The position numbers and the translations under genes were made by a program. This document shows positions 8,321 through 23,972 of a DNA stretch of 28,728 bases, one piece after another (position 1 is the first letter of the stretch; every line of letters starts with the position of its first letter). Under the pieces are notes generated by a model that had not been told where the DNA came from, ran no database searches, and saw only the letters and a list, made by a program, of their open reading frames with translations. This DNA comes from Saprospiraceae bacterium (GTDB lineage Bacteria > Bacteroidota > Bacteroidia > Chitinophagales > Saprospiraceae). The DNA is taken from the NCBI GenBank assembly GCA_020627865.1, contig JAHDGC010000006.1, positions 1 through 28,728 on the forward strand. Direction: 5' to 3'.

Positions 8321-8322
8321 TC

Positions 8323-9144: not shown

Positions 9145-9294
9145 GATTAGAAAAAGTTTATTTTTTAAAATATTGAAGAAAGAGCCTGAACATTTGTTTG
9201 GGCTTTTTTTGTTTGTTATAATAAATTGTGATAAAGGGAAATTCTGCCCTCGCCCCTCTTTTCATCACGCATTTTATTTAAAATTAAAACCAAT

Positions 9295-10362: not shown

Positions 10363-10899
10363 ATGTTAAAAAACGTTCCAAAAACTTTATTGTTGTTTGC
10401 TTTTTTTGCTTTTTTGTTCAATTCTTGTGGCTCCACGTCCAAAATTTCCACCAAAAGCACTACATACAGGAAAAGCACCACAACTAAAAAAAACAAAAAT
10501 ACTTCAGCGTATCTACTTAGAAAACAGGTCATAGATTATGCCAAAAGACAAGAAGGGTCAAAATATAAGTATGGCGGCATGAATAGATCAGGTTTTGACT
10601 GCTCTGGATTAAGTTGTTTTGTGATGAAAAAAGTAAATAAGACGCTCCCACATAATTCTACCGCACAATCCAAACAGGGCAAGAAAATTCCAATAAAGCA
10701 GGCCCAAGCAGGCGATCTTGTGTTCTTCGGAAGAAATGGAAAAGTAAATCATGTCGCCATTGTCTTAGAAAATAACGGACGGGAGTTAAAGGTTATTCAC
10801 AGTACCAGTTCAAGAGGCGTAATTATTGAGGACGTGCTCCGTTCCTCATACTGGAAGCCAAAGCTCATGTTTGCTGGAAATATTTTGGATAGTTATTAG
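10363..10899 (+). CDS. NlpC/P60 (C40) peptidase lipoprotein.
   Basis: A lipoprotein signal is present (LLLFAFFAFLFNSCGS). The C40 catalytic context is DCSGLSCFV with a downstream His (NHVAIV). Confidence 0.8.
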   Translation: MLKNVPKTLLLFAFFAFLFNSCGSTSKISTKSTTYRKSTTTKKNKNTSAYLLRKQVIDYAKRQEGSKYKYGGMNRSGFDCSGLSCFVMKKVNKTLPHNSTAQSKQGKKIPIKQAQAGDLVFFGRNGKVNHVAIVLENNGRELKVIHSTSSRGVIIEDVLRSSYWKPKLMFAGNILDSY

Positions 10900-11017
10900 A
10901 AAAATCCCATTCCACACGAAAAAGTATAATAAACAGATGTTTGCTCTTCGATAATGTACCAAAAAAAGTGTATTTTCGCACTCGTTTTACATCCTAATAA
11001 AAAAAACGCATTGCATT

Positions 11018-11590
11018 ATGAAAAACATCATACTTTTTGGCCCTCCGGGTTCTGGAAAAGGAACGCAGGCAGCTAAATTGGTCAAAAAATACAACCTACT
11101 ACACATTTCTACAGGCGACCTTTTTCGTTATGAATTGGGGAACAACACGGAATTAGGACAATTAGCCAAGAGCTACATGGATAAGGGGGCTTTAGTACCG
11201 GATGAGGTGACAGTGGCTATGCTAAAGAAAAAAGTGGAAATGAATCCTGATGTGAATGGATATATCTTCGATGGGTACCCTCGTACAGTCAACCAAGCCG
11301 TTCACTTGGATTATTTGCTGAAAGGGAAGAAGCAAAAGGTTTCTGGTCTAATTGCTTTGGATGTAGATGATGAAGAAATTGTAAAAAGATTGTTGCGCAG
11401 GGGAGAAACCTCAGGTCGTGCTGATGATAAAGATGAGAAGGTGATTCGCCAGCGGATTAAGGTTTATGAGAAAGAAACTTCTCCGGTCTTTGATTATTAT
11501 GATTTGAATAAGAAATCTACTAAGGTGGATGGTATTGGAAGTTTGAATCAGATTTTTAATCGACTTTGTGAGGTTATAGATAAGGTCTAA
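11018..11590 (+). CDS. adk: Adenylate kinase (short form).
   Basis: A P-loop GPPGSGKGTQ is followed by ISTGDLFR and GYIFDGYPRT. The length is 190 aa. Confidence 0.9.
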   Translation: MKNIILFGPPGSGKGTQAAKLVKKYNLLHISTGDLFRYELGNNTELGQLAKSYMDKGALVPDEVTVAMLKKKVEMNPDVNGYIFDGYPRTVNQAVHLDYLLKGKKQKVSGLIALDVDDEEIVKRLLRRGETSGRADDKDEKVIRQRIKVYEKETSPVFDYYDLNKKSTKVDGIGSLNQIFNRLCEVIDKV

Positions 11591-11750
11591 TGTGGTGGTT
11601 GGTGATTTTTTCTTTATAGAAATATTTTAAACGCCGTAAGCATTACGACGCTACATATTAAATATTACCAATAGCACCTCATTGCAAAGTGACAATTTCC
11701 TTTTTGGAGCTTGTCACTTTGTTTTTTAAAATAAGTATGATGACAATACT

Positions 11751-12743
11751 ATGGCCGAACAAAATTTTATAGATTACGTCAGAATTTGTTGTCGCTCCGG
11801 AGCTGGTGGGGCGGGTTCTGCGCATTTTTTTCGAGATAACCGCAATGCTATGGGTGGCCCTGACGGTGGTGATGGAGGTCGTGGTGGCCACATTATCCTA
11901 CGAGGCAACAAGCAATTCTGGACACTGCTTCCTTTAAAATATCGCAAGCATGTTATCGCGGGGAAAGGTGCTCCTGGAGGTGGCAATCACCGATCGGGAG
12001 CCTACGGGGAAGATGTTTACCTTGATGTCCCACTGGGCACTGTAGCCAAGGATGCTGAAACAGGGGAACAACTTTTTGAAATCACGGAAGATCAACAAGA
12101 AGTCATCTTGCTCAAAGGTGGCCGAGGCGGTAGGGGCAATAGCCATTTTAAATCTGCAACGAACCAATCTCCCCACTATGCCCAACCGGGAGAGTCAGGC
12201 AAGGAAGAATGGAAAATCCTAGAACTGAAAGTCTTGGCCGATGTCGGGCTAGTCGGATTTCCTAATGCCGGAAAATCTACCTTGTTGGCTTCCATTACGG
12301 CAGCCAAGCCTAAAATTGCCAGCTATGCCTTTACGACTTTACAGCCTAATTTGGGTATTGTTTCTTATCGGGATCATCGTTCTTTCGTGATGGCGGATAT
12401 TCCAGGGATTATCGAAAATGCGCATGAGGGAAAGGGATTGGGCCATCGTTTTCTAAGACATATTGAACGCAATGCTACCCTGCTTTTTATGATTCCTTGT
12501 GATTCGGATAACATCATCAAGGAGTATGAAGTGTTGCTTCATGAGTTAAAAATGTATAATGAAGAGTTACTCGACAAACCCCGTGTACTTGCTGTTACTA
12601 AAAGTGACTTGATGGATGAAGAACTCAAGGAAATGATCTCTGCAGAATTGCCGGAAAATGTTCCAATTGTTTTTATTTCGGCAGTGGCGCAGTTGGGCTT
12701 GGTGGAGTTGAAGGATTTGTTGTGGACACGGATGAACAAGTGA
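11751..12743 (+). CDS. obg: GTPase Obg/CgtA.
   Basis: An N-terminal Obg fold with Gly-rich repeats ([25 protein letters not shown]) is followed by a G domain ([15 protein letters not shown]). Confidence 0.9.
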
Positions 12744-12900: not shown

Positions 12901-13323
12901 TTATCCACCCAAATTAAAGAAGCGGTTTTCATCGGAATGCTCAACATAAGTAGTGACCAATGAACAAGCCCTGCACGCCTCTATATTTCTTTGGGCATAC
13001 CACCTACAAGTTGACCGAATTGCACACTCTGGCAATTGGTCTTTCAGGTATTTTTCTTCGATGCTTTGGAGCACATTATCAATTACGCCACATTTTGTCC
13101 CTGTCCATTGTTTACATCCAGACTCAACACACTTATTCGCCACCCTTAATGTTTTCTCCGGCTTTGTTCCTGCGGCAGAGGAATGCATCTGACCGTAGAG
13201 TTCCGCTGTTATTTTTACAGGAGTTGCCAACATATCCATTTCCTCTTGCTCATTCTTAATCCCGATCAGATAAGCTCCTTTAGAAAACCGAGAGCTTGGG
13301 CAAGTCTTACTTTCATCTTTCAT
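12901..13323 (-). CDS. Hypothetical Cys-rich protein (140 aa) at the end of the peptide-export cluster.
   Basis: The ORF has protein-like composition and 8 Cys residues (CKQWTGTKCG, CAIRSTCRWYAQRNIEACRAC). It is co-oriented with and immediately downstream of the GG-leader peptide gene. I recognise no family. Confidence 0.45.
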   Translation of the reverse strand: MKDESKTCPSSRFSKGAYLIGIKNEQEEMDMLATPVKITAELYGQMHSSAAGTKPEKTLRVANKCVESGCKQWTGTKCGVIDNVLQSIEEKYLKDQLPECAIRSTCRWYAQRNIEACRACSLVTTYVEHSDENRFFNLGG

Positions 13324-13422
13324 AAAATAACATTATTTTTTCATAGACAAAGTCACTTCTTCTGTACATAAAATGTAAGAATAAAGGCATACAGGCATAA
13401 TACTATATGCCTTAATAAAGCA

Positions 13423-13596
13423 TTAATGTGGACGCTCACCCGGCGCTACCATTCCCCAAATAATTGGAGGCTCAAGGTCAATAATCGGATCGTCTGAATT
13501 TCCACCTTTAATTTGCTGAATTTCATTTTCGAGCAAAGCTTGCTTTTCGAGTGCTTTCATTGCTTTCGCGATGATTGCTTTAGCGTTGTTTTTCAT
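13423..13596 (-). CDS. 57-aa double-glycine-leader peptide (bacteriocin/pheromone-type precursor). Leader MKNNAKAIIAKAMKALEKQALLENEIQQIKGG, core NSDDPIIDLEPPIIWGMVAPGERPH.
   Basis: This is a hand translation of the minus strand and is not in the ORF track because it is shorter than 60 aa. Its LxxxEIxxIKGG matches the double-glycine leader consensus cleaved by C39-peptidase ABC exporters. It lies 68 bp downstream of the HlyD gene on the same strand, and a stem-loop (aaggcata...tatgcctt) follows its stop codon. Confidence 0.6.
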   Translation of the reverse strand: MKNNAKAIIAKAMKALEKQALLENEIQQIKGGNSDDPIIDLEPPIIWGMVAPGERPH

Positions 13597-13664
13597 CTTA
13601 AATAAATTTTAAGTTATCCTTCATTTATTTAAAGTAGCTGAAGGAATCCCTACCTATATTTTCA

Positions 13665-14798
13665 TTAACTTTTTACCGTATTCATAATTGGAATAAACCG
13701 CCCTAGCAGTCTATGCTTTCTCGTGATAATTTCCCCAACGCCGGATAAATCCTGTTGATACGAAATACCAATATTGTAGCTGCTCACTAATTGTTGGGGC
13801 AAAGCTACTTCTACCCGATATGTGTTGTTGTCATTTGGATTCTTCGAGATCGCCGAAATCTCTCCCTCAAGCATTCCAAACTCCAACTCAGGGTATCCCG
13901 AAAGTTTAATGTTAACTTTTTGAGCAGGAGCCAACTTCCTCAGTTGTACAGCTGGCACTTCCAACATCGCTACATATTTCGATGATTGTTCAGGCACAAT
14001 TGTAATAACAGGTTTGCGTTTCTTTACTTTTTGTGTTTTACCGAAATTAATTTCCAAAATATTCCCGCCTATATCCGCCAGAATAAGGTGCTCTTTTTCC
14101 CATGTTTGCACAGCAGCTTTCAGATAATTAAAATCTTCTATAACTTTTTTAAAATAACTCAGGTGATTTGTTTTATTGCCCCCACTGGCTACGGCCTGAC
14201 TGTATATCTGATTCCGCTTTTCTTGAATTTCTTTTTCATGCAACAGGTACTGAAAATAACTTTCTTCAAATTGTGCATATGCTGTTTGAAGATTACCTAA
14301 GGTAAGTTGTCCGAGTTTTTGAAAAGCAAATTCAAAAGCATAAGAGTTGAGTTGAACGGCATCTACTTCTTTTCGTAAGCGCATAACATCCTGATAGTTG
14401 GCATTACTTTTCAGCACAATTAAAGGAGTACCCTTCTTCACCAACTGTCCCTTTAGCACCAAGAATGTTCCGATCTCATCGGCAGGTTCCAGAAAAATTT
14501 CCTGTGCTGGAAATTTATTAACAATAGTTGCCTCAGCAGAAACGACATCGGGATATTTCACAAACCATGCTATGGCAATCATCAAAAAGATCAAAGTAAA
14601 AAACAATATGTTGCCCCTGCGAATCATCCAATGAGGTACAGCAGTCAGGATTTCTTGTACATTTTCTTCCCGCAGTTGAAAAGGTTCTTTATCCTTTTGC
14701 TTAATCGCATCAATATCTAACGATGGATCAATATTTTTTTTGGGAATCCGGATGGTTTGCCCATTGTCTAACTCAATAGTTACATAATTATCATCCAT
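13665..14798 (-). CDS. HlyD-family membrane fusion / secretion adaptor protein.
   Basis: The 377-aa protein has a single N-terminal TM segment (ILFFTLIFLMIAIAWFV) and a long coiled-coil plus beta-barrel region typical of type-I/bacteriocin export adaptors. It starts 6 bp after the ABC exporter gene. Confidence 0.8.
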   Translation of the reverse strand: MDDNYVTIELDNGQTIRIPKKNIDPSLDIDAIKQKDKEPFQLREENVQEILTAVPHWMIRRGNILFFTLIFLMIAIAWFVKYPDVVSAEATIVNKFPAQEIFLEPADEIGTFLVLKGQLVKKGTPLIVLKSNANYQDVMRLRKEVDAVQLNSYAFEFAFQKLGQLTLGNLQTAYAQFEESYFQYLLHEKEIQEKRNQIYSQAVASGGNKTNHLSYFKKVIEDFNYLKAAVQTWEKEHLILADIGGNILEINFGKTQKVKKRKPVITIVPEQSSKYVAMLEVPAVQLRKLAPAQKVNIKLSGYPELEFGMLEGEISAISKNPNDNNTYRVEVALPQQLVSSYNIGISYQQDLSGVGEIITRKHRLLGRFIPIMNTVKS

Positions 14799-14804
14799 AA
14801 TATC

Positions 14805-17045
14805 TTAATTTCCTAGTTCCAGTTGATTTTTAACCAGTTCATAATATTTACCTTTCTTTTCGACAAGCTCAGCATGATTTCCGACCTCTACAGCCTTCCC
14901 TTCATCCAACACAATAATCTGGTGGGCATTCTTCACGGTACTCAATCGGTGGGCAATTACCACGACGGTTCTGTTTTCAAAAAACTGGTCTAAATTACCC
15001 ATGATTGTTTTTTCATTGTTTGCATCAAGGGCAGAAGTCGCTTCATCAAAAAACAAAAATGGAGGATCTTTATAAACAGCTCGCGCAATGAGAATTCGCT
15101 GCTTTTGCCCAGTACTTAACCCAACACCCTCCATTCCTATTTTAGTATTGTAAGACAGTGGCAATTCCTCGACAAAGCTCTTGATATTGGCGATTTCTGT
15201 AGCATTATAAAGTTCATCCATATTAATTTCATCTACTCCAACACAAACATTCTCCGCGATGGTATCGTTAAAAATATATCCTTCCTGCATGACGACTCCG
15301 CAATGCTCTCTCCACGTACTTTGAGAAATTCCTTGCATATCTATATTCCCCAAAGTTATTCGGCCTTTATTCGGCTCGTAAAATTTGAGTAATAATTTCA
15401 TCAAAGTTGTTTTGCCACTGCCACTTGCCCCAACAATTGCCGTTATATTGTTAGCAGGAATCGTGATATCAAGGTTTTCCAATACAGGTCGATGCGTCCC
15501 CGGATAGCGAAATGTCAATCCCTGAATGGTAATATCCTGATCCCTAGGCATAACCTTTATCTTATTTTCATTCAACTGTTCTTCATCTTCCCTGTGGTGG
15601 ATTTCGCCAAGTCGTTCTAATGAAATTTTGGCATCTTGTAACTCTCTGAGGAAGTTGATAATCTGCATGATTGGCGCATTCAGTTGCCCAACGATGTACG
15701 TAATGGCCAACATCATTCCTAGTGTTATTTGTCCATTGATAACAAACATGGCGGCAACGATGGTAATCAGGATGTTTTTTAATTCATTAATAAAAGATGA
15801 GCCTACATTTTGGTATTGGTCTAAGGCTAGCCCCTCTACAGACAATTTGAACAGTTTTGCCTGCAAGAATTCCCAAGACCATCTTTTTTGTTGTTCAGCA
15901 TTATGCAACTTGATCTCTTGCATTCCGTTAATCAACTCAATAACTTTGCTTTGCTCCTCACTAACCTGGCTAAACTTTTTATAATCTAAAATTTTCCTTT
16001 TCTTAAAGAAAAATAACACCCATGCAAAATAAAGGACTGTCCCCGTCAAGAAGATCAGAAAAATAGTGATGCTATACCATGCCAACACCAACCCAAAAGT
16101 CAACAAGTTAATGGTTGAAAACAATACATTTAGCGAGGATGTTGTTAGAATTTTCTCAATCCTCTTATGGTCATTAATCCGTTGCAAAATATCCCCCGTC
16201 ATCCTTACATCAAAGAAGGAAATTGGTAGCTTCATCAGCTTTATAAAAAAATCAGAAATTAATGAAATATTGATTCGGGTACTCAGGTGCAACAATATCC
16301 ACCCTCGGATGACTTCAATAGAGGTTCTACCGATAAAAAGGAATAACTGGGCTAACAAAATCAAAAATATAAAACCAATATCCTTATTACTGATCCCTAC
16401 GTCAACAATGCTTTGTGTCAGAAAAGGAAAAATCAACTGTAACACACTAGCAGCGAACAAACCAATGACCAACTGAACCAAAAAGGGTTTATATTTTAGG
16501 AGATATTTGGAGATGTAAGAAAAACCAAAAGTATGTGCTTGGTCATTTGTATCATCAGAATAAAAGTTAGGTGTGACTTCCACTAATAGCACAATACCTT
16601 CACGAGTATTTACATCTGCATTACTCCCAATCCATGTTTGTAAAAATTCTTCTCTGGTATAAGTAATCAAACCAAAAGCCGGATCAGAGACATAACAAAT
16701 ATCATTTTTCACCTTATGTAATACGACAAAATGATTGTTATTCCAGTGCAAAATACACGGTAAAGAAGCTTCCATCAATTTATTGTAATCTATCTTGACG
16801 GCCATTGCGCGAAAGCCTATTTTTTCAGCTGCGAGACCAAGGCTTTTGAGATTACTTCCCATCCGATTGGTTTCTGACAATATTCTGAGTCGTTGAATGT
16901 TCAGCGTTTTACCATAATACTTTGCAATAATCTTCAGGCACGTAGGCCCACAATCTTTAGCATCCGCTTGTTTATAAAAAGGAAACCGCCCGATGGATTG
17001 TTTTCTTTTTATTGTTTTATATTTAAGAGGTAACTCAGCCGTCAT
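14805..17045 (-). CDS. Peptidase C39 domain-containing ABC transporter (bacteriocin/RiPP-processing exporter).
   Basis: An N-terminal C39 peptidase has the catalytic Cys in QADAKDCGPTCLKIIAKYYG and a His in NNHFVVLH. A six-TM domain follows. The ABC cassette has Walker A GASGSGKTTL, signature LSTGQKQR and Walker B LFFDEATSALD. Confidence 0.9.
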   Translation of the reverse strand: MTAELPLKYKTIKRKQSIGRFPFYKQADAKDCGPTCLKIIAKYYGKTLNIQRLRILSETNRMGSNLKSLGLAAEKIGFRAMAVKIDYNKLMEASLPCILHWNNNHFVVLHKVKNDICYVSDPAFGLITYTREEFLQTWIGSNADVNTREGIVLLVEVTPNFYSDDTNDQAHTFGFSYISKYLLKYKPFLVQLVIGLFAASVLQLIFPFLTQSIVDVGISNKDIGFIFLILLAQLFLFIGRTSIEVIRGWILLHLSTRINISLISDFFIKLMKLPISFFDVRMTGDILQRINDHKRIEKILTTSSLNVLFSTINLLTFGLVLAWYSITIFLIFLTGTVLYFAWVLFFFKKRKILDYKKFSQVSEEQSKVIELINGMQEIKLHNAEQQKRWSWEFLQAKLFKLSVEGLALDQYQNVGSSFINELKNILITIVAAMFVINGQITLGMMLAITYIVGQLNAPIMQIINFLRELQDAKISLERLGEIHHREDEEQLNENKIKVMPRDQDITIQGLTFRYPGTHRPVLENLDITIPANNITAIVGASGSGKTTLMKLLLKFYEPNKGRITLGNIDMQGISQSTWREHCGVVMQEGYIFNDTIAENVCVGVDEINMDELYNATEIANIKSFVEELPLSYNTKIGMEGVGLSTGQKQRILIARAVYKDPPFLFFDEATSALDANNEKTIMGNLDQFFENRTVVVIAHRLSTVKNAHQIIVLDEGKAVEVGNHAELVEKKGKYYELVKNQLELGN

Positions 17046-17077
17046 AACAATACTATTGTAGAATTATTAAATATTTT

Positions 17078-18142
17078 TTAAACGATTTCGGTTTTTAGGG
17101 ATTGCTTCAGATTGTTTTCGCTCCATGCCTTCCATTCTCCGGTATACGGATTATACCCACATTTCAGTGGTTTACTTTTGTCATTAGAAGAATCTACAGT
17201 AAAGGCACGACAATCTGTGCAGATATACCGGAACTCACAATCCTTACACACTTCAACCTGATCTTTATTCAGATTCCAATACTTTTTGAAACGCGCATCC
17301 TTTATCGCATCCCTCAGTTTTATGGTTTCAACATTACCAAAAGATTCTGGCATTGCCGGGCAATTCCGGATTTCCCCCTGCTTATCAACAGACACCTTAC
17401 CGTTCAGGCAAGTATTGTGTTTTTGGGCTTCGGAAAATGTTTTAAGATGAATAGAGAAAAATGCTTTTTCAATGACCCCACAACTCTTTTCAGAAACCAC
17501 TTTACTTGCCGTATGAATCAGGTATTTGGAATGACCTACCGGGTGGATATGTTTTCCATATGGAGAGTCATAAATATTAACCGAGTTCATCCGTTTATAA
17601 GCCTTGAATAAGGCTACAAAATCTTTATTCTCATTTTTATCCCAATACGGCAAAATGAAATCTATCCCAATGGAATTTGACTGTATGCTATCCAAATAAT
17701 CTAATATTTCCCTGAGTTCATCAACACTGGTTTTACGATAAAATCGCATTTGAACAAACCTGCAATGTAGTTCACTTAGTTGTTCCAAAACGGCCTGTAG
17801 ATCAAACGAAGAACTTTCATCAAAATCAACAATAGCGTTAGAAACCTCTAGGGGGTCTTCCCATTCAAGATTCATTTCCGGAAAAAGTTCAGGTGTATCC
17901 GTTAAAAAAGCAAACTCATTATCCAGTAAGATATTGAAATAGTTATCAATAATTTTATCGTATTTATTTTCATACGCCGCCTTGATTTCGGGGATTGATT
18001 TTCCCTTATGGATTGTCAACACGTCATACAAATCCGTAGGAATCTGGATGTAATTATGTCTTTGCAAATCACAGATGATACTATTCTGGGCACCTTTTAC
18101 AGGAATGCAATTTGCGTAAAGTAAGCACACAGCATTTTTCAT
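17078..18142 (-). CDS. SPASM-domain protein (grasp-with-spasm-type peptide maturase). No canonical radical-SAM CxxxCxxC motif is visible.
   Basis: The C-terminus carries a SPASM-like Cys array: CLNGKVSVDKQGEIRNC (Cx15C with Gly) followed by CKDCEFRYICTDC (Cx2Cx5Cx2C) and a final CGYNPYTGEW. The N-terminal 250 aa contain no CxxxCxxC triad. It sits between the ATP-grasp gene and the exporter gene. Confidence 0.65.
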   Translation of the reverse strand: MKNAVCLLYANCIPVKGAQNSIICDLQRHNYIQIPTDLYDVLTIHKGKSIPEIKAAYENKYDKIIDNYFNILLDNEFAFLTDTPELFPEMNLEWEDPLEVSNAIVDFDESSSFDLQAVLEQLSELHCRFVQMRFYRKTSVDELREILDYLDSIQSNSIGIDFILPYWDKNENKDFVALFKAYKRMNSVNIYDSPYGKHIHPVGHSKYLIHTASKVVSEKSCGVIEKAFFSIHLKTFSEAQKHNTCLNGKVSVDKQGEIRNCPAMPESFGNVETIKLRDAIKDARFKKYWNLNKDQVEVCKDCEFRYICTDCRAFTVDSSNDKSKPLKCGYNPYTGEWKAWSENNLKQSLKTEIV

Positions 18143-18354
18143 TGGAAACTGATTATTTTTGAAATAGGTTTATATAATTGTTGGCTGCTCACATTATCGC
18201 TTTGATAGCTACGGGCCGACAGTTTTACCTTGTTGGGTACTTTAGGCCTGTTTGTCACTTTTGCCATTTGTAGTGTAATGGGGAAAGCCCCAGAGACATC
18301 TTTGAGTTTAAGTTTTTTCATCACATAAAAATTTTGCAATAGCCCTTTCCACAT
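18139..18354 (-). CDS. Candidate small ORF (71 aa, or 60 aa from the internal ATG at 18321) that fills the gap between the ATP-grasp and SPASM genes.
   Basis: The gap would otherwise be 165 bp. The ORF's TGA stop overlaps the SPASM ATG as ATGA (ttccaATGAaaaatgct). From the internal start it reads MKKLKLKDVSGAFPITLQMAKVTNRPKVPNKVKLSARSYQSDNVSSQQLYKPISKIISFQ. I recognise no family, so it may be spurious. Confidence 0.25.
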   Translation of the reverse strand: MWKGLLQNFYVMKKLKLKDVSGAFPITLQMAKVTNRPKVPNKVKLSARSYQSDNVSSQQLYKPISKIISFQ

Positions 18355-19267
18355 AAAAATTACAGTTTTGGGAAAGCCAGTGGAATTGCCCCATCGGGTT
18401 TATTTCTAGGAAATAATATTCATTTTTCGGGGTTACAATCAGGTCAATGGAACCCGTATTCATCTCGGCTTTATCCATGAAAGCCCAGACTTTTGCTGTT
18501 ACTTCTGCCGGCAATTTAACAGGGACGCAACGATTGGGTTTTAACTGGTTGTAATTCCTGTAATCTATTTTTGTTTGTTCATCTCGCTGGGAAAAAATAG
18601 CCATACAAAAAAGTTGTTGACAAACTACAAAAATCCTGATTTCATATTTTTTGGGCACATACTGTTGTAAAAAAATCGGCACAAAAGTATCATTAAGCTT
18701 ACGAATATGCGTTTCGTTTATTTGCTTAACACCTGTAGAAAGTATGTGCTTATTCCGAGTAGTGATACTTACCGGTACGCGCAAATCTTTCGTAATAAGC
18801 GGTGCGAACTTTTCATAGAACGCAAGTAACTCGCCCCTATTATTCGTAATCAATGTGTTGGGTATTTTAAAACCAACGTCCTTTGCAATACTCAAATTAA
18901 CCAGTTTATTGTTATGAGACTCTTGCATCAAGGAGCCGATATAGTTTTCTTTTAGGTTTTCCTTTAGTTTATATTCTTGGTAATTAATCAACCGCATAGC
19001 CTCCTTTGAAACATACCTAACATAATCCTCTCGATTAGCATAATCTTCAAAGATTTCTTTGGGCAGCACACTATGAAAACCTCGACGATGCCAGACTTTC
19101 TCCGCATTAGCAAACACACCGATATGATCCTCAGTATTAGAAATCGTGGTTATGGACTTCACAAAATCATTGTTATTGAAACGCGTAAAGGATTTCCCTC
19201 GACTGATAAGCCACTCAACAACCAAGTCTGTGGTCATGTCCCGTTTCTCTGAAATTATGTAGATCAT
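18308..19267 (-). CDS. ATP-grasp peptide ligase (graspetide / microviridin-type maturase, grasp-with-spasm-type).
   Basis: The 319-aa protein has an ATP-grasp fold (RimK/MvdD-like: KDLRVPVSITTRNKH..., EIRIFVV..., SIDLIVTPKNEYYFLEINPMGQF). It lies directly downstream of two precursor-peptide genes. Confidence 0.75.
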   Translation of the reverse strand: MIYIISEKRDMTTDLVVEWLISRGKSFTRFNNNDFVKSITTISNTEDHIGVFANAEKVWHRRGFHSVLPKEIFEDYANREDYVRYVSKEAMRLINYQEYKLKENLKENYIGSLMQESHNNKLVNLSIAKDVGFKIPNTLITNNRGELLAFYEKFAPLITKDLRVPVSITTRNKHILSTGVKQINETHIRKLNDTFVPIFLQQYVPKKYEIRIFVVCQQLFCMAIFSQRDEQTKIDYRNYNQLKPNRCVPVKLPAEVTAKVWAFMDKAEMNTGSIDLIVTPKNEYYFLEINPMGQFHWLSQNCNFYVERAIAKFLCDEKT

Positions 19268-19305
19268 AAAGCTATTTTTAAAAGAACTCAGGTTGAAAGA
19301 AAGAC

Positions 19306-19327
19306 TTCGGGATCATAGCGTCCCGAA
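19306..19327 (-). terminator. Stem-loop (ttcggga-tcatagcg-tcccgaa) between precursor gene 1 and the ATP-grasp gene: a probable partial terminator or attenuator.
   Basis: A 7-bp perfect stem is followed on the minus strand by tctttctttc. The analogous hairpin after precursor gene 2 (19541..19580, tcgggg...ccccga) shares the flanking gaaagatttcggg sequence. Confidence 0.4.
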
Positions 19328-19354
19328 ATCTTTCTTCGAATTCTCGGTTACAAA

Positions 19355-19477
19355 TTATATTGGGTATAATTCCAATGTTTCTGTATCTAGAATATCAGTA
19401 CGACCGCAAGTGTATACTAATTTTCCACCAAAGATTACTTCTGAATTGTTCAATTCAAATTTTTCAAAATTTTTCAT
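19355..19477 (-). CDS. RiPP precursor peptide 1 (40 aa): MKNFEKFELNNSEVIFGG / KLVYTCGRTDILDTETLELYPI.
   Basis: Hand-translated from the minus strand. It ends in TAA at 19355. The core is rich in Thr, Asp and Glu, as graspetide ester/amide-forming cores are. It has a GG leader end and lies immediately upstream of the ATP-grasp gene. Confidence 0.7.
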   Translation of the reverse strand: MKNFEKFELNNSEVIFGGKLVYTCGRTDILDTETLELYPI

Positions 19478-19607
19478 AATAAAATTATTTTAAGTTTTAA
19501 TAAAGGATTAGTTTTTTTTGGAAATGTTGAGGTAAAGATCTCGGGGATTTTATACCGCGAGCGATGTAAAAGCGCCCCGAAATCTTTCTATTGAATCATT
19601 GAGATGA

Positions 19608-19730
19608 CTAGATTGGGTAAAGCTCCAATGTTTCTGTGTCAACGATGTCCGTACGGCCACGTGTGTACACTAACTCACCACCAAAGATTACCTCAGAGTT
19701 ATTCAACTCAAATTTTTCAAAATTTTTCAT
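19608..19730 (-). CDS. RiPP precursor peptide 2 (40 aa): MKNFEKFELNNSEVIFGG / ELVYTRGRTDIVDTETLELYPI.
   Basis: A tandem paralogue of peptide 1 with an identical leader and three core substitutions (K19E, C24R, L29V). The shared downstream sequence indicates a gene-plus-hairpin duplication. Confidence 0.7.
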   Translation of the reverse strand: MKNFEKFELNNSEVIFGGELVYTRGRTDIVDTETLELYPI

Positions 19731-19845
19731 AATAAATTGTTTTTTTAAGTTTAATAAAAAATTAACTCCTACTCTATTAAAGGATTTTCGGATAGCTCCC
19801 TATTTTGAATTGATCGATCTTATCCTAAATTAATTATTGCGGGTA

Positions 19846-22563
19846 TTAAAAATCATATTTCAAACTCCCGAGAAAATACCTTGATTGGATGAAATATTCA
19901 TTTGTACTGATCAAGGCATCAGAGAAAAAATCTTGCCGAATAGACTTTGTATCCAACAGATTCAGGCAGGCAATTTTAAACTCAAACGGACTGTCCTTCT
20001 TCTTATAGTAAAGTTCAGCATTTAAAAGATCATACACCCCAGAGGTTGCCGAATCCTTACTCTTATACCAGTTATATTCATAATCTGCTACAAGAATAAA
20101 ACTCTTCAGAAACGAAACTTCTATATTCATAAAAGGTCGGTTTGTAATATACTGCTGACCTGAAACTACATTGTTACCGTAACGATTTACAATATATTTA
20201 AAACCAACTTCCAGTACAGGAAAATTATCTGCTACAGTCTCTATGCTACCCACATACCGTTGCGTAAAACTATTGTTAAATGTAAGTTCATTATCTTCAA
20301 ACAAGCTATTGTATTTGGCATAAGACAAATTCGCATTTACATCCAATTTAAGAAATTTAAATCGTCTTTCATATGCCCCTAGGACTGATAGAAAATCATT
20401 GGGTTCTCCAACATTCACAGGGATAGAAACCCGCTCAAGTCCATTGTATATGATCCGTGTATTGATGTGGTCATATTTTTTCTGAAAAGACAGCATGCCG
20501 TATATATTCGTAAAATTGAATAAATTTAGGGAAGAATAATTCAGGCTCAGGTTATGGTACCAAGCATTATTCAAACTTGAATTCCCATAAAATAAATCAT
20601 TGTAATCCCTAAGTACACTATTTTGAGCATACTGCTGAACATCAAAAAACTCTGCTTGTATCGAATAATCCAGCTTTAAAGAAATAGACTTCCGAAACTT
20701 GTATTTGGCATTAAAATATGGCAACATTATATATTTACTGAAACTTTCCGTATTTCCCAACTGTGTATTTTCAAGTTGGAACCGGTGGAAAGTCAGCCCA
20801 GGGTTTATGGTCAATTTACCAATTTTCGACTTCGCACCTAGCCCTATAAAAGCATCTTGAAATTGATAAGTAACATTATTATTCAAACCATCTTCCCCAA
20901 AATCTACATCTTGCCCTCCTCTCATTTTTTGCAGCAGTCCCGATTCTAACTGTTGGTTGCTGAAGGTATATCCTCCTGTAAAATTCAGATGATTAGTCTT
21001 GTTCAAGATATAGTAATGATTCAGTGTAAAATCCATCTTATGGGTATAAATCCTGCTATCTTGAAAAAGATTGTAAACGGTATCGGTATTCAATGGAATA
21101 ATATCGGGAAAAAGCTGTTCTGTTGTTGCCAGCGCATAACCCGTTTTTTTATTGTTATACTGCTGACTAAAACCCAGCACGGATACGTTCTTGTCATTCT
21201 CATTGTAAAACACGTCCACTTTTTGTCGGAACGCAGGCACCACAATACTATGATCTGCATCAAAAGCTCTGGTATCAAAATCACTCTCAGAGCGCAACAT
21301 TTTCTGCTCCGTGGTTTTATGATGCTTGAGCATAAAATCATGCTCTATATGCAAATCTGGATGCGGTGTATATCTCGTGTTGAACTTCAACATCCCAGTC
21401 GCAGTACCTTGTTCATTTGTTGAAATTAAACGCTCGCTATTATTTCCCTGACGAATATACAACCTGCTGGCCTGATCTTCAATCAAGGATGTTAAATCAG
21501 AGGCTATCGCAAATCCAGAGAACGCTAATTTACTGTTAGGATTCCAAGTAAAATTAAATGCACCTACCTTTGCATCCATATTTCTAGCTTTATTTTCCTT
21601 CATTAAACCTAACCCTAATTCATCTGAGGAAAGTTGCATGGACACACCCGATTTTTTCCCTAGATTATTAAGCCCACCGTTAAAGCGGAAATAATCCTGT
21701 ACCGAGAAGACCTGTTGGCTAATATTATTTACATTGCCGATAAAGTTAATACTGACTTTAGGCCTAAAGTAAAATACATTCGCATGACCAAGGTATCTTT
21801 TTTCGGGGCCAGCCCCTGCCTCAGCAGAACCAAACACGATATTCTGTTTGCCTTCTTTCAGCCTAATATCTATGGCCAACTTATGATCTCCTCCCAAGCC
21901 ATTCATCGGAGTAAATGAATTGTTATCGTTGAATAAATTTATCTTATCCACAACATTAGCCGGAATATTATTGGTAGCCAGCTTCGTATCTCCTGTAAAG
22001 AAATCTTTTCCATCAACAGTCAGTTTATCCACCTTCTCTCCATTCACTTTAATCTGACCGTTTTCCCCGACTTCAAACCCTGGCAACTGCTCAAACACGT
22101 CTTTAAGTTTGCGCTCCTTTCCCGTTGTAAAAGCCTCGGCCCTATAGCTAATAGTATCCCCAGAAACCGCAACAGGTAGCTCGTATACTACAGTAACTTC
22201 ACTCAGGTTATTAGCAGCGGGTTGCAATACAATGGTTTTAAATCCGTACTCTCTTGTTAGGTCTACTATTTCACTCCAATCCTCGTATCCCAGATAACTC
22301 ACCTTTAGCAAGTAGCTCGAATCCTGATCAAGTTCAATTTTGAAACGGCCTTCACTATCAGTTATGGCAAAGGAACGAATTGGTCCATTCTCTTCGGTAA
22401 GTCCAATAACATTGGCAAAAGATAAAGGTTCCTGTTCCGTGTTATAAACAACACCTTCTACAAATACCTGCTGTGCCTGTACAACTCCCGCACTCCACAA
22501 AATTAAACAGATCAAGGGGAATAGGCTCCTGAATACTAATATGTTCGTTTTATAATTTCTCAT
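19846..22563 (-). CDS. Outer-membrane beta-barrel protein, TonB-dependent-receptor-like with an N-terminal carboxypeptidase-regulatory-like domain.
   Basis: The 905-aa protein has a signal peptide (LICLILWSAGVVQAQQ) and a CarbopepD_reg-like beta-sandwich (VEGVVYNTEQEPLSFANVIGL...SEGRFKIEL). A long beta-rich region follows, ending in an aromatic terminal residue (..LGSLKYDF). Confidence 0.75.
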   Translation of the reverse strand: MRNYKTNILVFRSLFPLICLILWSAGVVQAQQVFVEGVVYNTEQEPLSFANVIGLTEENGPIRSFAITDSEGRFKIELDQDSSYLLKVSYLGYEDWSEIVDLTREYGFKTIVLQPAANNLSEVTVVYELPVAVSGDTISYRAEAFTTGKERKLKDVFEQLPGFEVGENGQIKVNGEKVDKLTVDGKDFFTGDTKLATNNIPANVVDKINLFNDNNSFTPMNGLGGDHKLAIDIRLKEGKQNIVFGSAEAGAGPEKRYLGHANVFYFRPKVSINFIGNVNNISQQVFSVQDYFRFNGGLNNLGKKSGVSMQLSSDELGLGLMKENKARNMDAKVGAFNFTWNPNSKLAFSGFAIASDLTSLIEDQASRLYIRQGNNSERLISTNEQGTATGMLKFNTRYTPHPDLHIEHDFMLKHHKTTEQKMLRSESDFDTRAFDADHSIVVPAFRQKVDVFYNENDKNVSVLGFSQQYNNKKTGYALATTEQLFPDIIPLNTDTVYNLFQDSRIYTHKMDFTLNHYYILNKTNHLNFTGGYTFSNQQLESGLLQKMRGGQDVDFGEDGLNNNVTYQFQDAFIGLGAKSKIGKLTINPGLTFHRFQLENTQLGNTESFSKYIMLPYFNAKYKFRKSISLKLDYSIQAEFFDVQQYAQNSVLRDYNDLFYGNSSLNNAWYHNLSLNYSSLNLFNFTNIYGMLSFQKKYDHINTRIIYNGLERVSIPVNVGEPNDFLSVLGAYERRFKFLKLDVNANLSYAKYNSLFEDNELTFNNSFTQRYVGSIETVADNFPVLEVGFKYIVNRYGNNVVSGQQYITNRPFMNIEVSFLKSFILVADYEYNWYKSKDSATSGVYDLLNAELYYKKKDSPFEFKIACLNLLDTKSIRQDFFSDALISTNEYFIQSRYFLGSLKYDF

Positions 22564-22565
22564 GG

Positions 22566-23396
22566 TTAGCTCCTTTCCTTCTTACGTTTCGTTTCGGACA
22601 TCTTCATCATTTCTGCCAGTTTTTCATTGTACATTTTTTTGAAGGAAGCTTTATTGGTTTTCTTTCCTTTACAAGGCTTCTTAATTTTAACTTCTTCCGT
22701 AGGATTGAGTATAATTTTGGAGCAAGTAATACGAATCCTATCGTTACTCACTTCAAGGATAAAGCCTGGAAGTCCCCAGTATTGGGCAGGTCCTTGGCTA
22801 ATCGGGATACTAGGTGTATACCATGCTGTTATGGTGGTTTTGACTATTTTCTCCCCCGGTTTTCCATCATTAGCTATTTTTGTAAAATCCGGTTTTTTCA
22901 CTTCTTTTATTGCCGTAGCCTTATAGCAAGTGTATGTTCCTATTTGCTTGGTTTCGTTGTCAAGTGTCCAATCCAGTTGCTCTAACTTATCCTTAAGCAA
23001 GAACAGTTTCCCAAAAACGTCCCTATTTTCCAGAGATGTCATTTCCGCAGTGTTCTTATACAAACCGCCATCAGATCCACCTCCAAGCCCAACAACTTCC
23101 AGCTCCTTTCCTTGTCCTGTACTTTTTAATTTCGGAATTTCCTTGTAGAGTGATTCTGTCCGATTGAAAGCCAACTCGTACTCTTTCTGCATCGCCCTTC
23201 TGATTTTATCATTAAGCGCTTGTTCATCAATAGTTGTTTTTTTTACAGTATGTTTTGTACTATCTGTATCCTCAACAGGATCGATTGAAATTTCATTTAT
23301 AGACTCTGTATGATAAAAAGCCTTGCCATGAACGTCTTGCCCGTACGAATTAAACATGGCGAAACAAACGAATGCAAATACTAATAACTTTTTCAT
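22566..23396 (-). CDS. GLPGLI-family protein.
   Basis: The 276-aa protein has a signal peptide and a YWGLPGFILEV motif, the diagnostic GLPGLI box. The gene ends 3 bp before the outer-membrane barrel gene, the usual pairing for this family in Bacteroidota. Confidence 0.7.
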   Translation of the reverse strand: MKKLLVFAFVCFAMFNSYGQDVHGKAFYHTESINEISIDPVEDTDSTKHTVKKTTIDEQALNDKIRRAMQKEYELAFNRTESLYKEIPKLKSTGQGKELEVVGLGGGSDGGLYKNTAEMTSLENRDVFGKLFLLKDKLEQLDWTLDNETKQIGTYTCYKATAIKEVKKPDFTKIANDGKPGEKIVKTTITAWYTPSIPISQGPAQYWGLPGFILEVSNDRIRITCSKIILNPTEEVKIKKPCKGKKTNKASFKKMYNEKLAEMMKMSETKRKKERS

Positions 23397-23549: not shown

Positions 23550-23972
23550 TTAAAATCTAACAGTTAAAAATGCATCTGAAAGTTTAATGCTGTATCTTCC
23601 AGCCTGGATAGTCCAAGGCTGTTTCATAAAATCTATTTTAACAGTATAAGGTTCTTCGACGATGAAAACAGAATTAAAATGCTGATCAAGAATCACTTTA
23701 TTTATGGTACTTCTAAGAAAAGCTAACTCAAAATATAAGTCTTCATCATAAGAGACAACAGCATATGTTAGCGCCTTATCTCCACAACAATCCGAAACAT
23801 CGTAAGACAATTTCTTTGGGTAAACTCCTTCTATTCGACAGATACCAAAATTTTTACAGTTGGAGCTTGGCCGTCCAAGTACTACCTCGGCAAAACCTTG
23901 TTTTATTTCAGGGCTGTGCTTGGCTGCCTCCCTTTTTACAACTTGTTTTACAGATGTTTTTCGGCTATTCAT
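23550..23972 (-). CDS. Hypothetical protein (140 aa).
   Basis: The ORF has protein-like composition. I recognise no motif. Confidence 0.4.
   Translation of the reverse strand: MNSRKTSVKQVVKREAAKHSPEIKQGFAEVVLGRPSSNCKNFGICRIEGVYPKKLSYDVSDCCGDKALTYAVVSYDEDLYFELAFLRSTINKVILDQHFNSVFIVEEPYTVKIDFMKQPWTIQAGRYSIKLSDAFLTVRF

What the first reader, a model, noticed from the sequence alone, without database searches (positions are those of the whole stretch)
12901..19730. Grasp-with-SPASM-type RiPP cluster coupled to a dedicated C39-ABC/HlyD exporter and a second GG-leader peptide.
One strand carries, in transcription order, two tandem 40-aa precursors, an ATP-grasp ligase, a SPASM-domain protein, a C39-peptidase ABC exporter and an HlyD adaptor. 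After these come a 57-aa double-glycine-leader peptide and a Cys-rich 140-aa protein. The leader is MKNFEKFELNNSEVIFGG and the core is rich in Thr, Asp and Glu. Gaps are tight (6 bp, 32 bp) and one junction is an ATGA overlap. ATP-grasp graspetide enzymes are characterised, but the ATP-grasp plus SPASM pairing is, to my knowledge, defined only computationally, with the product chemistry unknown. The GG leaders on both peptide types suggest both are cleaved and exported by the same C39 transporter.
Basis: partly seen in the sequence, partly recalled or inferred. Interest (0 to 1): 0.9.

Follow-up and report, generated by a model that had tools for sequence, protein, structure and literature searches.

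The report
Grasp-with-SPASM peptide cluster plus stray cassette
This is a real but fairly typical member of an already catalogued, chemically uncharacterised family of bacterial gene clusters that make cross-linked peptides (the 'grasp-with-SPASM' graspetides), and the extra peptide and cysteine-rich protein at its tail are a separate, unannotated two-gene module.

Summary
On the minus strand lie two tandem 40-aa double-glycine precursors, an ATP-grasp ligase, a SPASM protein, a C39-ABC exporter, a HlyD adaptor, a 57-aa GG peptide and a 140-aa Cys-rich protein.

The core is the catalogued grasp-with-spasm system (TIGR04192/TIGR04193, gwsG/gwsS; Makarova 2022 'Branch 5'; graspetide 'Group 14'). 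It has about 2,800 SPASM homologues, and no product chemistry was found in the literature searched up to 2026.

Corrections and additions:
- A conserved 60-aa 'LPL-family' gene between the ATP-grasp and SPASM genes was missed; the ATGA overlap belongs to it.
- The SPASM protein has no CxxxCxxC site (0 of 64 homologues). Its N-terminus folds like a RiPP recognition element, so it is unlikely to be a radical-SAM enzyme.
- Thirteen of 16 cores in this precursor family have no Cys. They share Thr5 and a D-x-Y-D-T motif.
- An upstream GLPGLI protein and a 905-aa outer-membrane barrel are syntenic in the nearest relatives.
- The 57-aa peptide and the 8-Cys protein are absent from 84 related loci. 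They recur as an independent pair elsewhere, within a family of at least 475 members that is not in Pfam or NCBIfam.

Verdict: a new member of a known kind, of moderate interest.

The parts
19608..19730 (-). Precursor A1, 40 aa: an 18-aa double-glycine leader (MKNFEKFELNNSEVIFGG) and a 22-aa core (ELVYTRGRTDIVDTETLELYPI) with no Cys.
   Evidence: ORF. Homologues in L005, L006, L008 and L012. Purifying selection against copy A2, pN/pS 0.054.
19534..19588 (-). Stem-loop after precursor A1 (13-bp outer stem).
   Evidence: MFE -24.8 kcal/mol, z -4.66.
19355..19477 (-). Precursor A2, 40 aa. It is a tandem paralogue with 3 aa differences (E19K, R24C, V30L).
19296..19337 (-). 17-bp stem-loop between the last precursor and the ATP-grasp gene. 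It is a candidate leaky terminator or RNA stabiliser that would set the precursor-to-enzyme ratio.
   Evidence: MFE -25 to -31 kcal/mol, z -4.6 to -6.0. Strong hairpins sit at the same position in L005, L006 and L008.
18308..19267 (-). GwsG, the grasp-with-spasm ATP-grasp peptide maturase (319 aa).
   Evidence: TIGR04192 at 232.4 bits against a cutoff of 230. PDB relatives are CdnC, AMdnB, MdnC and MdnB. It is 56-59% identical to the orthologues in L005, L006 and L002.
18139..18321 (-). LPL-family small protein (60 aa; FPITLQ ... LYKPISKI). It is translationally coupled to both neighbours: a 14-nt overlap with gwsG and an ATGA overlap with gwsS.
   Evidence: Sequence. Homologues at the same junction in 62 of 81 loci by position and in at least 52 of 78 by HMM. 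Described as the 'LPL family' in PMC8939145.
17078..18142 (-). GwsS, the SPASM-domain peptide maturase (354 aa). It consists of an N-terminal RRE-like domain, a radical-SAM-like barrel with no CxxxCxxC site, and a SPASM domain with the CX11GX4C...CX2CX5CX2C...C motif.
14805..17045 (-). Peptidase-containing ABC exporter (746 aa). The C39 motifs are intact (Q..DCGPTC; HFVVL...VSDP).
   Evidence: Pfam Peptidase_C39 1.8e-33, ABC_membrane and ABC_tran. Sequence. It is 72-79% identical to the neighbours' exporters.
13665..14798 (-). HlyD-family membrane-fusion adaptor (377 aa) with an N-terminal TM segment.
   Evidence: Pfam HlyD_3 3.8e-11 and TIGR01843.
19846..22563 (-). 905-aa outer-membrane protein: a CarboxypepD_reg domain followed by a large beta-barrel. 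It is syntenic with the cluster in the nearest relatives and is a candidate outer-membrane component.
   Evidence: Pfam hits. Orthologues directly upstream of the precursors in L001/L005, L004/L006, L008 and L012, some of which hit PF14905.
22566..23396 (-). GLPGLI-family (Porph_ging) protein, 276 aa, abutting the outer-membrane protein gene.
   Evidence: TIGR01200 at 169 bits and PF09697. Syntenic in L005, L006, L008 and L012.
23550..23972 (-). 140-aa ORF of unknown function at the head of the same-strand block. Whether it belongs to the cluster is uncertain.
   Evidence: One homologue (29% identity, E 4.5e-8) at the equivalent position in L005. No family hit.
13423..13596 (-). 57-aa double-glycine peptide. 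It is the first gene of an independent cassette, not a graspetide precursor.
   Evidence: No homologue in 84 grasp-with-spasm loci. Homologous leaders sit next to 8-Cys genes in L085, L086, L088 and L089, and P0142 is a further member.
13384..13413 (-). Terminator-like hairpin between the 57-aa peptide gene and the 8-Cys gene.
   Evidence: 11-bp stem; region z -3.3.
12901..13323 (-). 140-aa protein with 8 conserved Cys (SGCKQWTG.KCG; LP.C.IR.TCRWY.Q; AC..C). It is the second gene of the cassette.
   Evidence: 19 homologues, alignment A2, and at least 475 relatives in metagenomes. No Pfam, NCBIfam, PADLOC or PDB match.

Best explanation
The region is a grasp-with-SPASM graspetide biosynthetic gene cluster of the Bacteroidota type. 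It is probably from a Saprospiraceae-like organism.

**Proposed pathway.**
1. Two near-identical 40-aa precursors are made in excess. Stable hairpins after each precursor gene damp read-through into the enzyme genes (inferred).
2. The ATP-grasp ligase GwsG installs side-chain ester cross-links in the 22-residue core. The likely partners are the family-invariant Thr5 and an Asp of the conserved D-x-(Y/V)-D-T motif (inferred from conservation).
3. GwsS is not a radical-SAM enzyme. It has an N-terminal RRE-like leader-binding fold, a barrel that has lost the SAM-cluster cysteines, and an intact SPASM Fe-S domain. It most likely acts as a leader-binding Fe-S partner or second, non-radical maturase, working with GwsG and the translationally coupled 60-aa LPL protein (inferred).
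4. The C39 domain of the ABC exporter cuts after GG, and the ABC/HlyD pair exports the product. The family and motif assignments are shown; the activity is inferred.
5. The syntenic GLPGLI protein and 905-aa outer-membrane barrel may handle outer-membrane passage or re-uptake (speculative).

**Tail of the operon.** The 57-aa GG peptide and the 8-Cys protein form a separate portable two-gene cassette that has landed downstream of the exporter and probably borrows it.
For: **Family membership.**
- Both curated equivalog cutoffs are passed.
- The ATP-grasp's best solved relatives are graspetide macrocyclases.
- The SPASM protein has 2,776 homologues, many named 'grasp-with-spasm system SPASM domain peptide maturase'.
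- A further 592 relatives were confirmed in genomes.

**Precursors.**
- 16 members from the window, L005, L006, L008 and L012 all have an 18-aa leader.
- 15 of 16 have Thr at core position 5, and 16 of 16 have the [DE]x[YVLF][DN][TSD] motif.
- pN/pS between the window's two copies is 0.054.

**LPL gene.** It lies at the same junction in at least 52 of 78 loci.

**GwsS.**
- No CxxxCxxC in 25 aligned homologues or in 64 full-length homologues.
- The SPASM cysteine motif is kept in 63 of 64.

**Cores.** 13 of 16 contain no Cys.

**Hairpins.** z -4.3 to -6 after precursor genes in four loci.

**Synteny.** The outer-membrane barrel and GLPGLI genes are syntenic in L005, L006, L008 and L012.

**Cassette independence.**

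**Literature.** PMC8939145 (Branch 5, LPL) and PMC13097080 (Group 14).
Against: - Nothing here is biochemical. The cross-link positions, the role of GwsS and the role of LPL are all inferences.
- The ATP-grasp clears TIGR04192 by only 2.4 bits.
- The GwsS model is moderate (mean pLDDT 75.5) and poor across the SPASM part. No PqqD/RRE Pfam hit was obtained by sequence.
- Three further invariant cysteines (C12, C127, C221) could in principle build a non-canonical cluster.
- DUF6624, a lipoprotein-like protein present in the nearest relatives and probably Makarova's 'cluster 23', is absent from the whole window. The pathway here may therefore be incomplete or may differ.
- The outer-membrane barrel and GLPGLI linkage holds only in the nearest sub-clade.
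- A C39-ABC gene immediately downstream is not universal among the related loci.
Confidence: 0.8

Rival explanations
1. GwsS is a working radical enzyme, as the published Branch 5 description assumes. On this view it installs a thioether, C-C or C-O cross-link on the ATP-grasp product, using a non-canonical cluster site or SAM chemistry.
For: - The SPASM domain is intact in 63 of 64 homologues.
- The fold is closest to rSAM-SPASM RiPP maturases.
- Three extra invariant cysteines (C12, C127, C221) lie outside the 7-Cys motif.
- Makarova et al. propose thioether formation.
Against: - No CxxxCxxC in 0 of 64 homologues.
- In the AF2 model, the segment after the first barrel strand reads D-F-D-E-S-S-S and contains no Cys.
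- 13 of 16 cores in this family have no Cys to donate sulfur.
- NCBIfam lists it as a SPASM-domain maturase; the nearest comparable model hit is a 'pseudo-rSAM' (TIGR04150).
Confidence: 0.15
2. The 57-aa GG peptide and the 8-Cys protein are an integral part of the graspetide pathway, as a second substrate type with its own tailoring or immunity protein.
For: - They lie on the same strand, 68 nt downstream of HlyD.
- The peptide has a canonical double-glycine leader.
- The only C39 peptidase in the window is the cluster's exporter.
Against: - No homologue of either gene occurs in 84 grasp-with-spasm loci. The nearest relatives end after HlyD.
- The pair occurs without ATP-grasp or SPASM genes in L085, L086, L088 and L089.
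- The only conserved neighbour of the 8-Cys gene is the small upstream partner.
- The cores lack a conserved Thr/Ser-Asp/Glu pattern.
Confidence: 0.08
3. The 8-Cys protein and its small partner are not a peptide-maturation pair. They could instead be a regulatory, immunity or toxin-antitoxin-like two-gene module, with the 8-Cys protein acting as a zinc-binding partner.
For: - It is a strict two-gene unit in variable contexts, with a median 4-6-nt gap in the soil clade.
- The partner there is a 75-100-aa protein without a GG site.
- The 8-Cys protein is small for an enzyme and has no TM segment or signal peptide.
Against: - In the Bacteroidota subgroup the partner has a conserved GG leader and a hypervariable core, which is the signature of exported peptides.
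- PADLOC does not recognise it.
- No toxin-like domain was found.
Confidence: 0.35
4. The ATP-grasp is a housekeeping RimK or glutathione-synthetase-type ligase and the 40-aa ORFs are chance ORFs.
For: There are weak RimK-family hits: TIGR00768 at 34.6 bits and PF08443 (weak) on relatives.
Against: - The RimK score is far below its cutoff of 143, whereas TIGR04192 is passed.
- The best PDB relatives are graspetide macrocyclases.
- The precursor family is conserved in four other genomes.
- The precursors are under strong purifying selection.
Confidence: 0.02

Closest known systems
Grasp-with-spasm system (NCBIfam TIGR04192/TIGR04193, gwsG/gwsS; Makarova 2022 ATP-grasp 'Branch 5'; graspetide 'Group 14')
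   Same: - An ATP-grasp maturase and a SPASM protein, both above the curated cutoffs.
- GG-leader precursors upstream.
- An LPL-family small gene directly upstream of the SPASM gene.
- A C39-ABC and a HlyD downstream.
- Bacteroidota-type genomic context.
   Different: - This precursor family is not recognised by PF14406 or by any NCBIfam precursor model (no hit).
- The cores are the shortest in their family (22 aa) and mostly lack Cys.
- The DUF6624 lipoprotein found in the nearest relatives is missing.
- An unrelated GG-peptide and 8-Cys cassette is appended.
Microviridin and chryseoviridin ATP-grasp macrocyclases (MdnB/MdnC, PDB 5IG8/5IG9; CdnC, PDB 7MGV)
   Same: - Homologous ATP-grasp domain (E 7e-28 to 5e-22 over residues ~117-317).
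- Thr/Ser and Asp/Glu-rich cores.
- GG leaders and C39 exporters in many clusters.
   Different: - Those enzymes act alone on precursors with a PFFARL-type leader helix and have no SPASM or LPL partner.
- Their products are known tricyclic protease inhibitors, whereas the product here is unknown.
rSAM-SPASM RiPP maturases with an N-terminal RRE (SuiB 5V1Q, CteB 5WGG, PqqE 6C8V with PqqD)
   Same: - The same three-part layout by fold: RRE, partial TIM barrel, SPASM domain.
- The 7-Cys SPASM motif is present.
   Different: - GwsS lacks the CX3CX2C radical-SAM cluster site throughout the family, so SAM-radical chemistry is not expected.
- There is no detectable sequence similarity to PDB entries.
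Partner-protein-dependent graspetide synthetases (rosaritide MirB/MirC; PMC13097080)
   Same: The concept is shared: a graspetide ATP-grasp that strictly co-occurs with, and may depend on, a non-ligase partner protein.
   Different: - The partner there is a PpiC-type chaperone-domain protein, whereas here it would be an RRE-SPASM Fe-S protein plus a 60-aa protein.
- Dependence is untested here.
Peptidase-containing ABC transporters (PCATs) for double-glycine peptides, such as PCAT1, LahT and the NHLP and bacteriocin exporters
   Same: - A C39 domain with Cys and His/Asp motifs.
- A six-TM ABC core and a HlyD adaptor.
- Substrates with GG leaders.
   Different: - It scores below the equivalog cutoffs of the named NCBIfam exporter families.
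- It may serve two unrelated peptide families in this locus.

Membership tests
Grasp-with-spasm system | ATP-grasp protein scoring above the TIGR04192 equivalog cutoff | tested here: met
   232.4 bits against a cutoff of 230, full length 1-318/318. It clears the cutoff by only 2.4 bits.
Grasp-with-spasm system | SPASM-domain protein scoring above the TIGR04193 equivalog cutoff, encoded next to the ATP-grasp | tested here: met
   355.9 bits against a cutoff of 175. The genes are 165 nt apart on the same strand, with only the LPL gene between them.
Grasp-with-spasm system | Small LPL-family protein directly upstream of the SPASM gene (Makarova 2022) | tested here: met
   60-aa ORF with FPITLQ and YKPISKI motifs. 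Homologues sit at the same junction in at least 52 of 78 loci.
Grasp-with-spasm system | GG-motif precursor peptide(s) upstream of the ATP-grasp | tested here: met
   Two 40-aa precursors. The family is conserved in L005, L006, L008 and L012.
Grasp-with-spasm system | Cluster 23/DUF6624-type predicted lipoprotein in the locus ('almost all Branch 5 loci') | tested here: not met
   tblastn of the L005 and L006 DUF6624 proteins against the window gives no hit better than E 0.25. It is a frequent accessory, not a defining gene.
Graspetide (RiPP class) | ATP-grasp homologous to characterised omega-ester/amide macrocyclases | tested here: met
   CdnC 6.8e-28, AMdnB 7.8e-25, MdnC/MdnB 1.3e-24 and 4.6e-22.
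Graspetide (RiPP class) | Side-chain macrolactone or macrolactam cross-links in the mature peptide | not testable with these tools
   This needs mass spectrometry. Only conserved candidate residues (Thr5; D-x-Y-D-T) were identified.
Radical SAM / SPASM peptide maturases | CX3CX2C motif binding the SAM-cleaving [4Fe-4S] cluster | tested here: not met
   Absent in the window protein, in 25 aligned homologues and in 0 of 64 full-length homologues.
Radical SAM / SPASM peptide maturases | SPASM 7-Cys motif for the auxiliary clusters | tested here: met
   C245-X11-G-X4-C261 ... C299-X2-C302-X5-C308-X2-C311 ... C328, all invariant. Present in 63 of 64 homologues. TIGR04085 at 30.9 bits against a cutoff of 27.
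RiPP recognition element (PqqD-like) | Three-strand, three-helix winged-helix fold at the N-terminus | tested here: met
RiPP recognition element (PqqD-like) | Sequence match to the PqqD Pfam family, and leader-peptide binding | tested here: not met
   No PqqD hit for residues 1-94 even at E 10. Binding cannot be tested here.
Peptidase-containing ABC transporter (PCAT) | N-terminal C39 domain with catalytic Cys and His/Asp motifs, plus an ABC exporter core | tested here: met
   PF03412 1.8e-33, PF00664 and PF00005. The motifs 'QADAKDCGPTC' and 'HFVVL...VSDP' can be read directly in the sequence.

The most novel reading that the evidence does not exclude
There are two readings that the evidence does not exclude.

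**(a) A three-component graspetide synthetase.** GwsS would be a radical-SAM-dead, RRE-bearing Fe-S protein. Together with the 60-aa LPL protein it would be an obligate leader-presenting subunit for the ATP-grasp. Alternatively, it would add a non-radical redox modification not yet seen in RiPPs.

**(b) A new class of peptide-maturation pair.** The 57-aa peptide and the 8-Cys protein would belong to a widespread pair that is not in Pfam or NCBIfam (at least 475 loci). Its Bacteroidota branch would have acquired double-glycine leaders for export.

The probability given is for at least one of the two being true.
Probability: 0.35. Interest if true: 0.65.

Novelty: new member of a known kind. Interest (0 to 1): 0.4.

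Why it matters
The grasp-with-SPASM group is one of the largest graspetide groups with no known product or chemistry. No characterised example was found in the literature searched.

**Why this locus is a useful test case.**
- It is compact.
- It has the shortest cores in its family (22 residues, one of them free of Cys).
- It has two near-identical precursors and a complete exporter.

**What the analysis changes.** It narrows what to expect. The SPASM partner cannot do canonical radical-SAM chemistry and carries its own leader-binding fold. The commonly repeated 'thioether by a radical SAM enzyme' idea is therefore unlikely for this sub-family. A three-protein maturase complex (GwsG, LPL, GwsS) becomes the hypothesis to test.

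**Side finding.** The 8-Cys protein and small-partner pair is an uncatalogued, widespread gene pair that may deserve a study of its own.

Tried and rejected
1. **Precursor family models.** Pfam and NCBIfam searches with the 40-aa precursors, the LPL protein, the 57-aa peptide and the 8-Cys protein gave no significant hits. The only traces were sub-threshold leader similarity of the 57-aa peptide to PF14406 (E 0.13) and ComC (E 0.13).
2. **Structure of the 8-Cys protein.** The AF2 model had pLDDT 57, too low for a fold search, so none was run. A profile search of the PDB found nothing below E 0.38.
3. **Sequence search for GwsS.** A profile of the family found no solved relative at E 0.01. Only fold comparison was informative.
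4. **Natural LPL-GwsS fusions as evidence of interaction.** The longer homologue P0097 has no PISKI motif, so its N-terminal extension is most likely a mis-called start. Rejected.
5. **Homology between the two 140-aa ORFs** (12901-13323 and 23550-23972). None was found.
6. **DUF6624 in the window.** Not found.
7. **Linking the 57-aa peptide to the 75-100-aa partner family.** The partner-family HMM gave no hit. Only a short motif resemblance remains (PPIIWGMVAP against GPILWGIIARP), so homology is not claimed.
8. **Sigma-70 promoter scan.** The number of sites found was no greater than in shuffled sequence (38 against 39.4), and the scan is not suited to Bacteroidota promoters.
9. **Papers not held.** Haft & Basu 2011 and Ramesh et al. 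2021 were unavailable, so their content is cited only through papers that quote them.
10. **Defence-system library.** No hits.

Full report
**Observation**

The 32-bp and 6-bp junctions are correct.

The two 40-aa genes are a tandem duplication with a 253-nt period. They differ at 24 of 123 nucleotides, yet only 3 of the 20 changed codons alter the peptide (pS 0.77, pN 0.042, pN/pS 0.054). The flanking DNA is barely alignable. Both copies are therefore maintained as coding genes.

- The ATP-grasp and SPASM genes are 165 nt apart. The 'ATGA overlap' is between the SPASM gene and an unlisted 60-aa ORF (18139-18321) that also overlaps the ATP-grasp stop by 14 nt.
- The leader MKNFEKFELNNSEVIFGG belongs to the 40-aa precursors, not to the 57-aa peptide.

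**What the core is**

- The ATP-grasp passes the NCBIfam equivalog TIGR04192, 'grasp-with-spasm system ATP-grasp peptide maturase' (232.4 bits, cutoff 230).
- The SPASM protein passes TIGR04193 (355.9 bits, cutoff 175).
- RimK-type models score far below their cutoffs.
- The ATP-grasp's best solved relatives are the graspetide macrocyclases CdnC, AMdnB, MdnC and MdnB (E 7e-28 to 5e-22).
- The exporter has Peptidase_C39, ABC_membrane and ABC_tran domains with readable catalytic motifs. The adaptor is HlyD-family.
- The SPASM protein has 2,776 homologues at E<=1e-5, many already named by NCBI or JGI.
- A genome scan confirmed 592 relatives. These are mainly Flavobacteriia, Saprospiraceae and Chitinophagales, but also Thermoanaerobaculia and other Acidobacteriota, Longimicrobium and a Myxococcaceae MAG.
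- The closest are Saprospiraceae MAGs (65% and 62% identity) and a Psychroserpens (61%).

**Literature**

- Makarova et al. 2022 (PMC8939145) describe exactly this arrangement as ATP-grasp 'Branch 5': 190 loci, Bacteroidetes-specific, always with a TIGR04193 SPASM protein, highly diverse GG precursors, a small 'LPL family' protein always directly upstream of the SPASM gene, and a 'cluster 23' protein. They list C39-ABC, HlyD and a PF14905 outer-membrane barrel among the associated families.
- Carter et al. [quoted passage not shown]
- A 2026 preprint uses the gene names gwsG/gwsS for P. gingivalis ICE-borne copies.
- I found no experimental product or enzymology for this group among 62 graspetide papers from 2022 onwards.
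It is, however, well known computationally.

**Conservation of the small genes**

BLAST and a profile built from nine sequences recover the same precursor family in the nearest loci:
- four copies in the Saprospiraceae MAG (L005)
- three in Psychroserpens (L006)
- four in Neolewinella persica (L008)
- four in a Lewinella MAG (L012)

In 16 of these sequences the leader is always 18 residues (M-E/K-x-F-x-x-F-x-L...I-F/V-G-G). The core has Thr at position 5 in 15 of 16. All 16 carry a [DE]-x-[YVLF]-[DN]-[TSD] motif. 13 of 16 cores have no Cys. The window's 22-residue cores are the shortest.

More distant loci carry differently patterned, Cys-rich cores, in line with the diversity Makarova reports.

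The 60-aa ORF is a divergent LPL-family member (FPITLQ ... LYKPISKI). A small ORF ending at the SPASM start is present in 62 of 81 loci by position. At least 52 of 78 are detected by an HMM, including acidobacterial loci with an LVPVT ... KPISKC variant.

**The SPASM protein is not a radical-SAM enzyme**

- In an alignment of 25 homologues the invariant cysteines are C12, C127, C221 and the SPASM set C245, C261, C299, C302, C308, C311 and C328. No sequence has CxxxCxxC.
- Across 64 full-length homologues from the genome loci, none has CxxxCxxC in the first 200 residues, while 63 keep the SPASM cysteine motif.
- In the model, the segment after the first barrel strand, where radical-SAM enzymes carry the cluster cysteines, reads D-F-D-E-S-S-S and contains no Cys.
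- By established knowledge of the superfamily, SAM cleavage needs that three-Cys site. Combined with the Cys-free cores, this makes the thioether idea unlikely here.
- The most economical reading is a leader-binding Fe-S partner or non-radical second maturase. It may form a complex with GwsG and LPL, by analogy with the partner-dependent graspetide synthetases reported in 2026.
- This step is inference. Three extra invariant cysteines leave room for a non-canonical site.

**Extent of the cluster**

- In L005, L006, L008 and L012 a GLPGLI/Porph_ging protein and a ~900-aa CarboxypepD_reg outer-membrane barrel directly precede the precursors, as in the window at 22566-23396 and 19846-22563.
- This linkage holds only in the sub-clade that shares this precursor family.
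- A further 140-aa ORF (23550-23972) has one weak homologue at the same place in L005.
- The relatives also have a DUF6624 lipoprotein-like gene between the barrel and the precursors. The window has none anywhere.
- There is no TolC-like gene in the window.
- The whole same-strand block runs from 12901 to 23972. It lies between a convergent obg gene and a divergent 514-aa ORF, beyond an 825-nt AT-rich spacer.
- Stable stem-loops follow both precursor genes (z -4.7 and -6.0). They recur at the precursor/enzyme boundary in L005, L006 and L008 with unrelated sequences. This is consistent with leaky terminators or RNA stabilisers, as known from other RiPP operons. Their function is inferred.

**The tail is a different thing**

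- Neither the 57-aa peptide nor the 140-aa Cys-rich protein has a homologue in any of the 84 grasp-with-spasm loci. The nearest relatives end after HlyD.
- The Cys-rich protein is nonetheless a real family. It has 19 homologues in the clustered protein database and eight (nearly) invariant cysteines in the motifs SGCKQWTG.KCG, LP.C.IR.TCRW(Y/F).Q and AC..C.
- In four unrelated contigs it is immediately preceded by a small peptide whose leader is homologous to the window's (…KALDALKKQALRDDEIKQVKGG). The contexts are beside NRPS genes, SdpC-type toxin genes, an RHS/SpvB-type toxin gene and a LanB-like gene.
- The cores of these peptides are hypervariable and often end in GMW.P or PPI(I/L).G(L/M)(I/V). 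An orphan 59-aa member was also found.
- A metagenome scan found at least 475 relatives, mostly on soil contigs.
- There the gene is preceded by a 75-100-aa protein with a conserved N-terminal region and a W/P-x-G-hydrophobic motif. This holds in 45 of 69 loci by HMM and 49 of 75 by clustering, always on the same strand, with a median gap of 4-6 nt. No third gene is conserved.
- Neither protein family is in Pfam, NCBIfam, PADLOC or the PDB by sequence. The structure model was too poor to use.
- In the window the cassette sits 68 nt downstream of HlyD, with a terminator-like hairpin between its two genes.
- Borrowing the neighbouring C39 exporter is a reasonable guess, but nothing more.

**Verdict**

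The system is an already catalogued kind, so this is a new member of it and not a discovery.

What the follow-up adds:
- the missed LPL gene
- the evidence that the SPASM partner is a radical-SAM-dead, RRE-bearing protein acting on largely Cys-free cores
- the wider syntenic block
- the separation of the 57-aa peptide and 8-Cys protein as an independent, uncatalogued gene pair

Interest is moderate (0.4). The locus is a good minimal test case for an open chemistry question, and the side finding may be new.

Noticed in passing
window 12901-13596 (-); L085-L169: The 57-aa GG peptide and the 8-Cys 140-aa protein form a portable two-gene cassette. The 8-Cys family has at least 475 metagenomic relatives and is always paired with a small upstream partner. 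That partner is a GG-leader peptide in Bacteroidota-like contigs and a 75-100-aa protein in soil contigs. Neither family is in Pfam, NCBIfam, PADLOC or the PDB.
   Followed up: yes
window 23550-23972 (-); L005 2587-3000: A 140-aa ORF with a CKNFGIC...CCG motif heads the same-strand block. It has one weak homologue (29% identity) at the equivalent position upstream of the GLPGLI gene in the closest Saprospiraceae locus. It has no family assignment.
   Followed up: partly
L005 6818-7825; L006 7662-8594; absent from the window: A DUF6624 lipoprotein-like gene, probably Makarova's 'cluster 23', lies between the outer-membrane barrel and the precursors in the nearest relatives. It was detected in 15 of the 84 loci. 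It is missing from the entire 28.7-kb window, which also has the shortest cores of the family.
   Followed up: partly
L054-L058, L063, L069, L082 (Acidobacteriota); L071, L079 (Longimicrobiaceae); L065 (Myxococcaceae): Grasp-with-spasm loci occur outside Bacteroidota. They have a longer LPL-family variant (…LVPVT.RF … RKPISKC), although the published description calls the branch Bacteroidetes-specific.
   Followed up: partly
window 13000-25000 compared with 1-12000: The cluster block has a lower G+C content (0.31-0.40) than the housekeeping flank with prs, rplY, adk and obg (0.38-0.46). The flanks are not syntenic with those of the closest relatives. Both points hint at horizontal acquisition.
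   Followed up: no
window 14805-17045 compared with 13665-14798: Across the nearest relatives the C39-ABC exporter is far more conserved (72-79% identity) than the HlyD adaptor (38-48%), the ATP-grasp (56-59%) or the SPASM protein (61-65%).
   Followed up: no
window 13589-13615 and 19470-19496: The sequences just upstream of the start codons of the 57-aa peptide and of precursor A2 share a 27-nt AT-rich stretch (81% identity; AACTTAAAAT...ATGAAAAA on the coding strand). It may be a shared translation or regulatory signal, or chance in AT-rich DNA.
   Followed up: no
window 23973-26342: An 825-nt AT-rich spacer (G+C about 0.31) separates the cluster from a divergent 514-aa ORF (24798-26342) that has no significant Pfam or NCBIfam match.
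   Followed up: no
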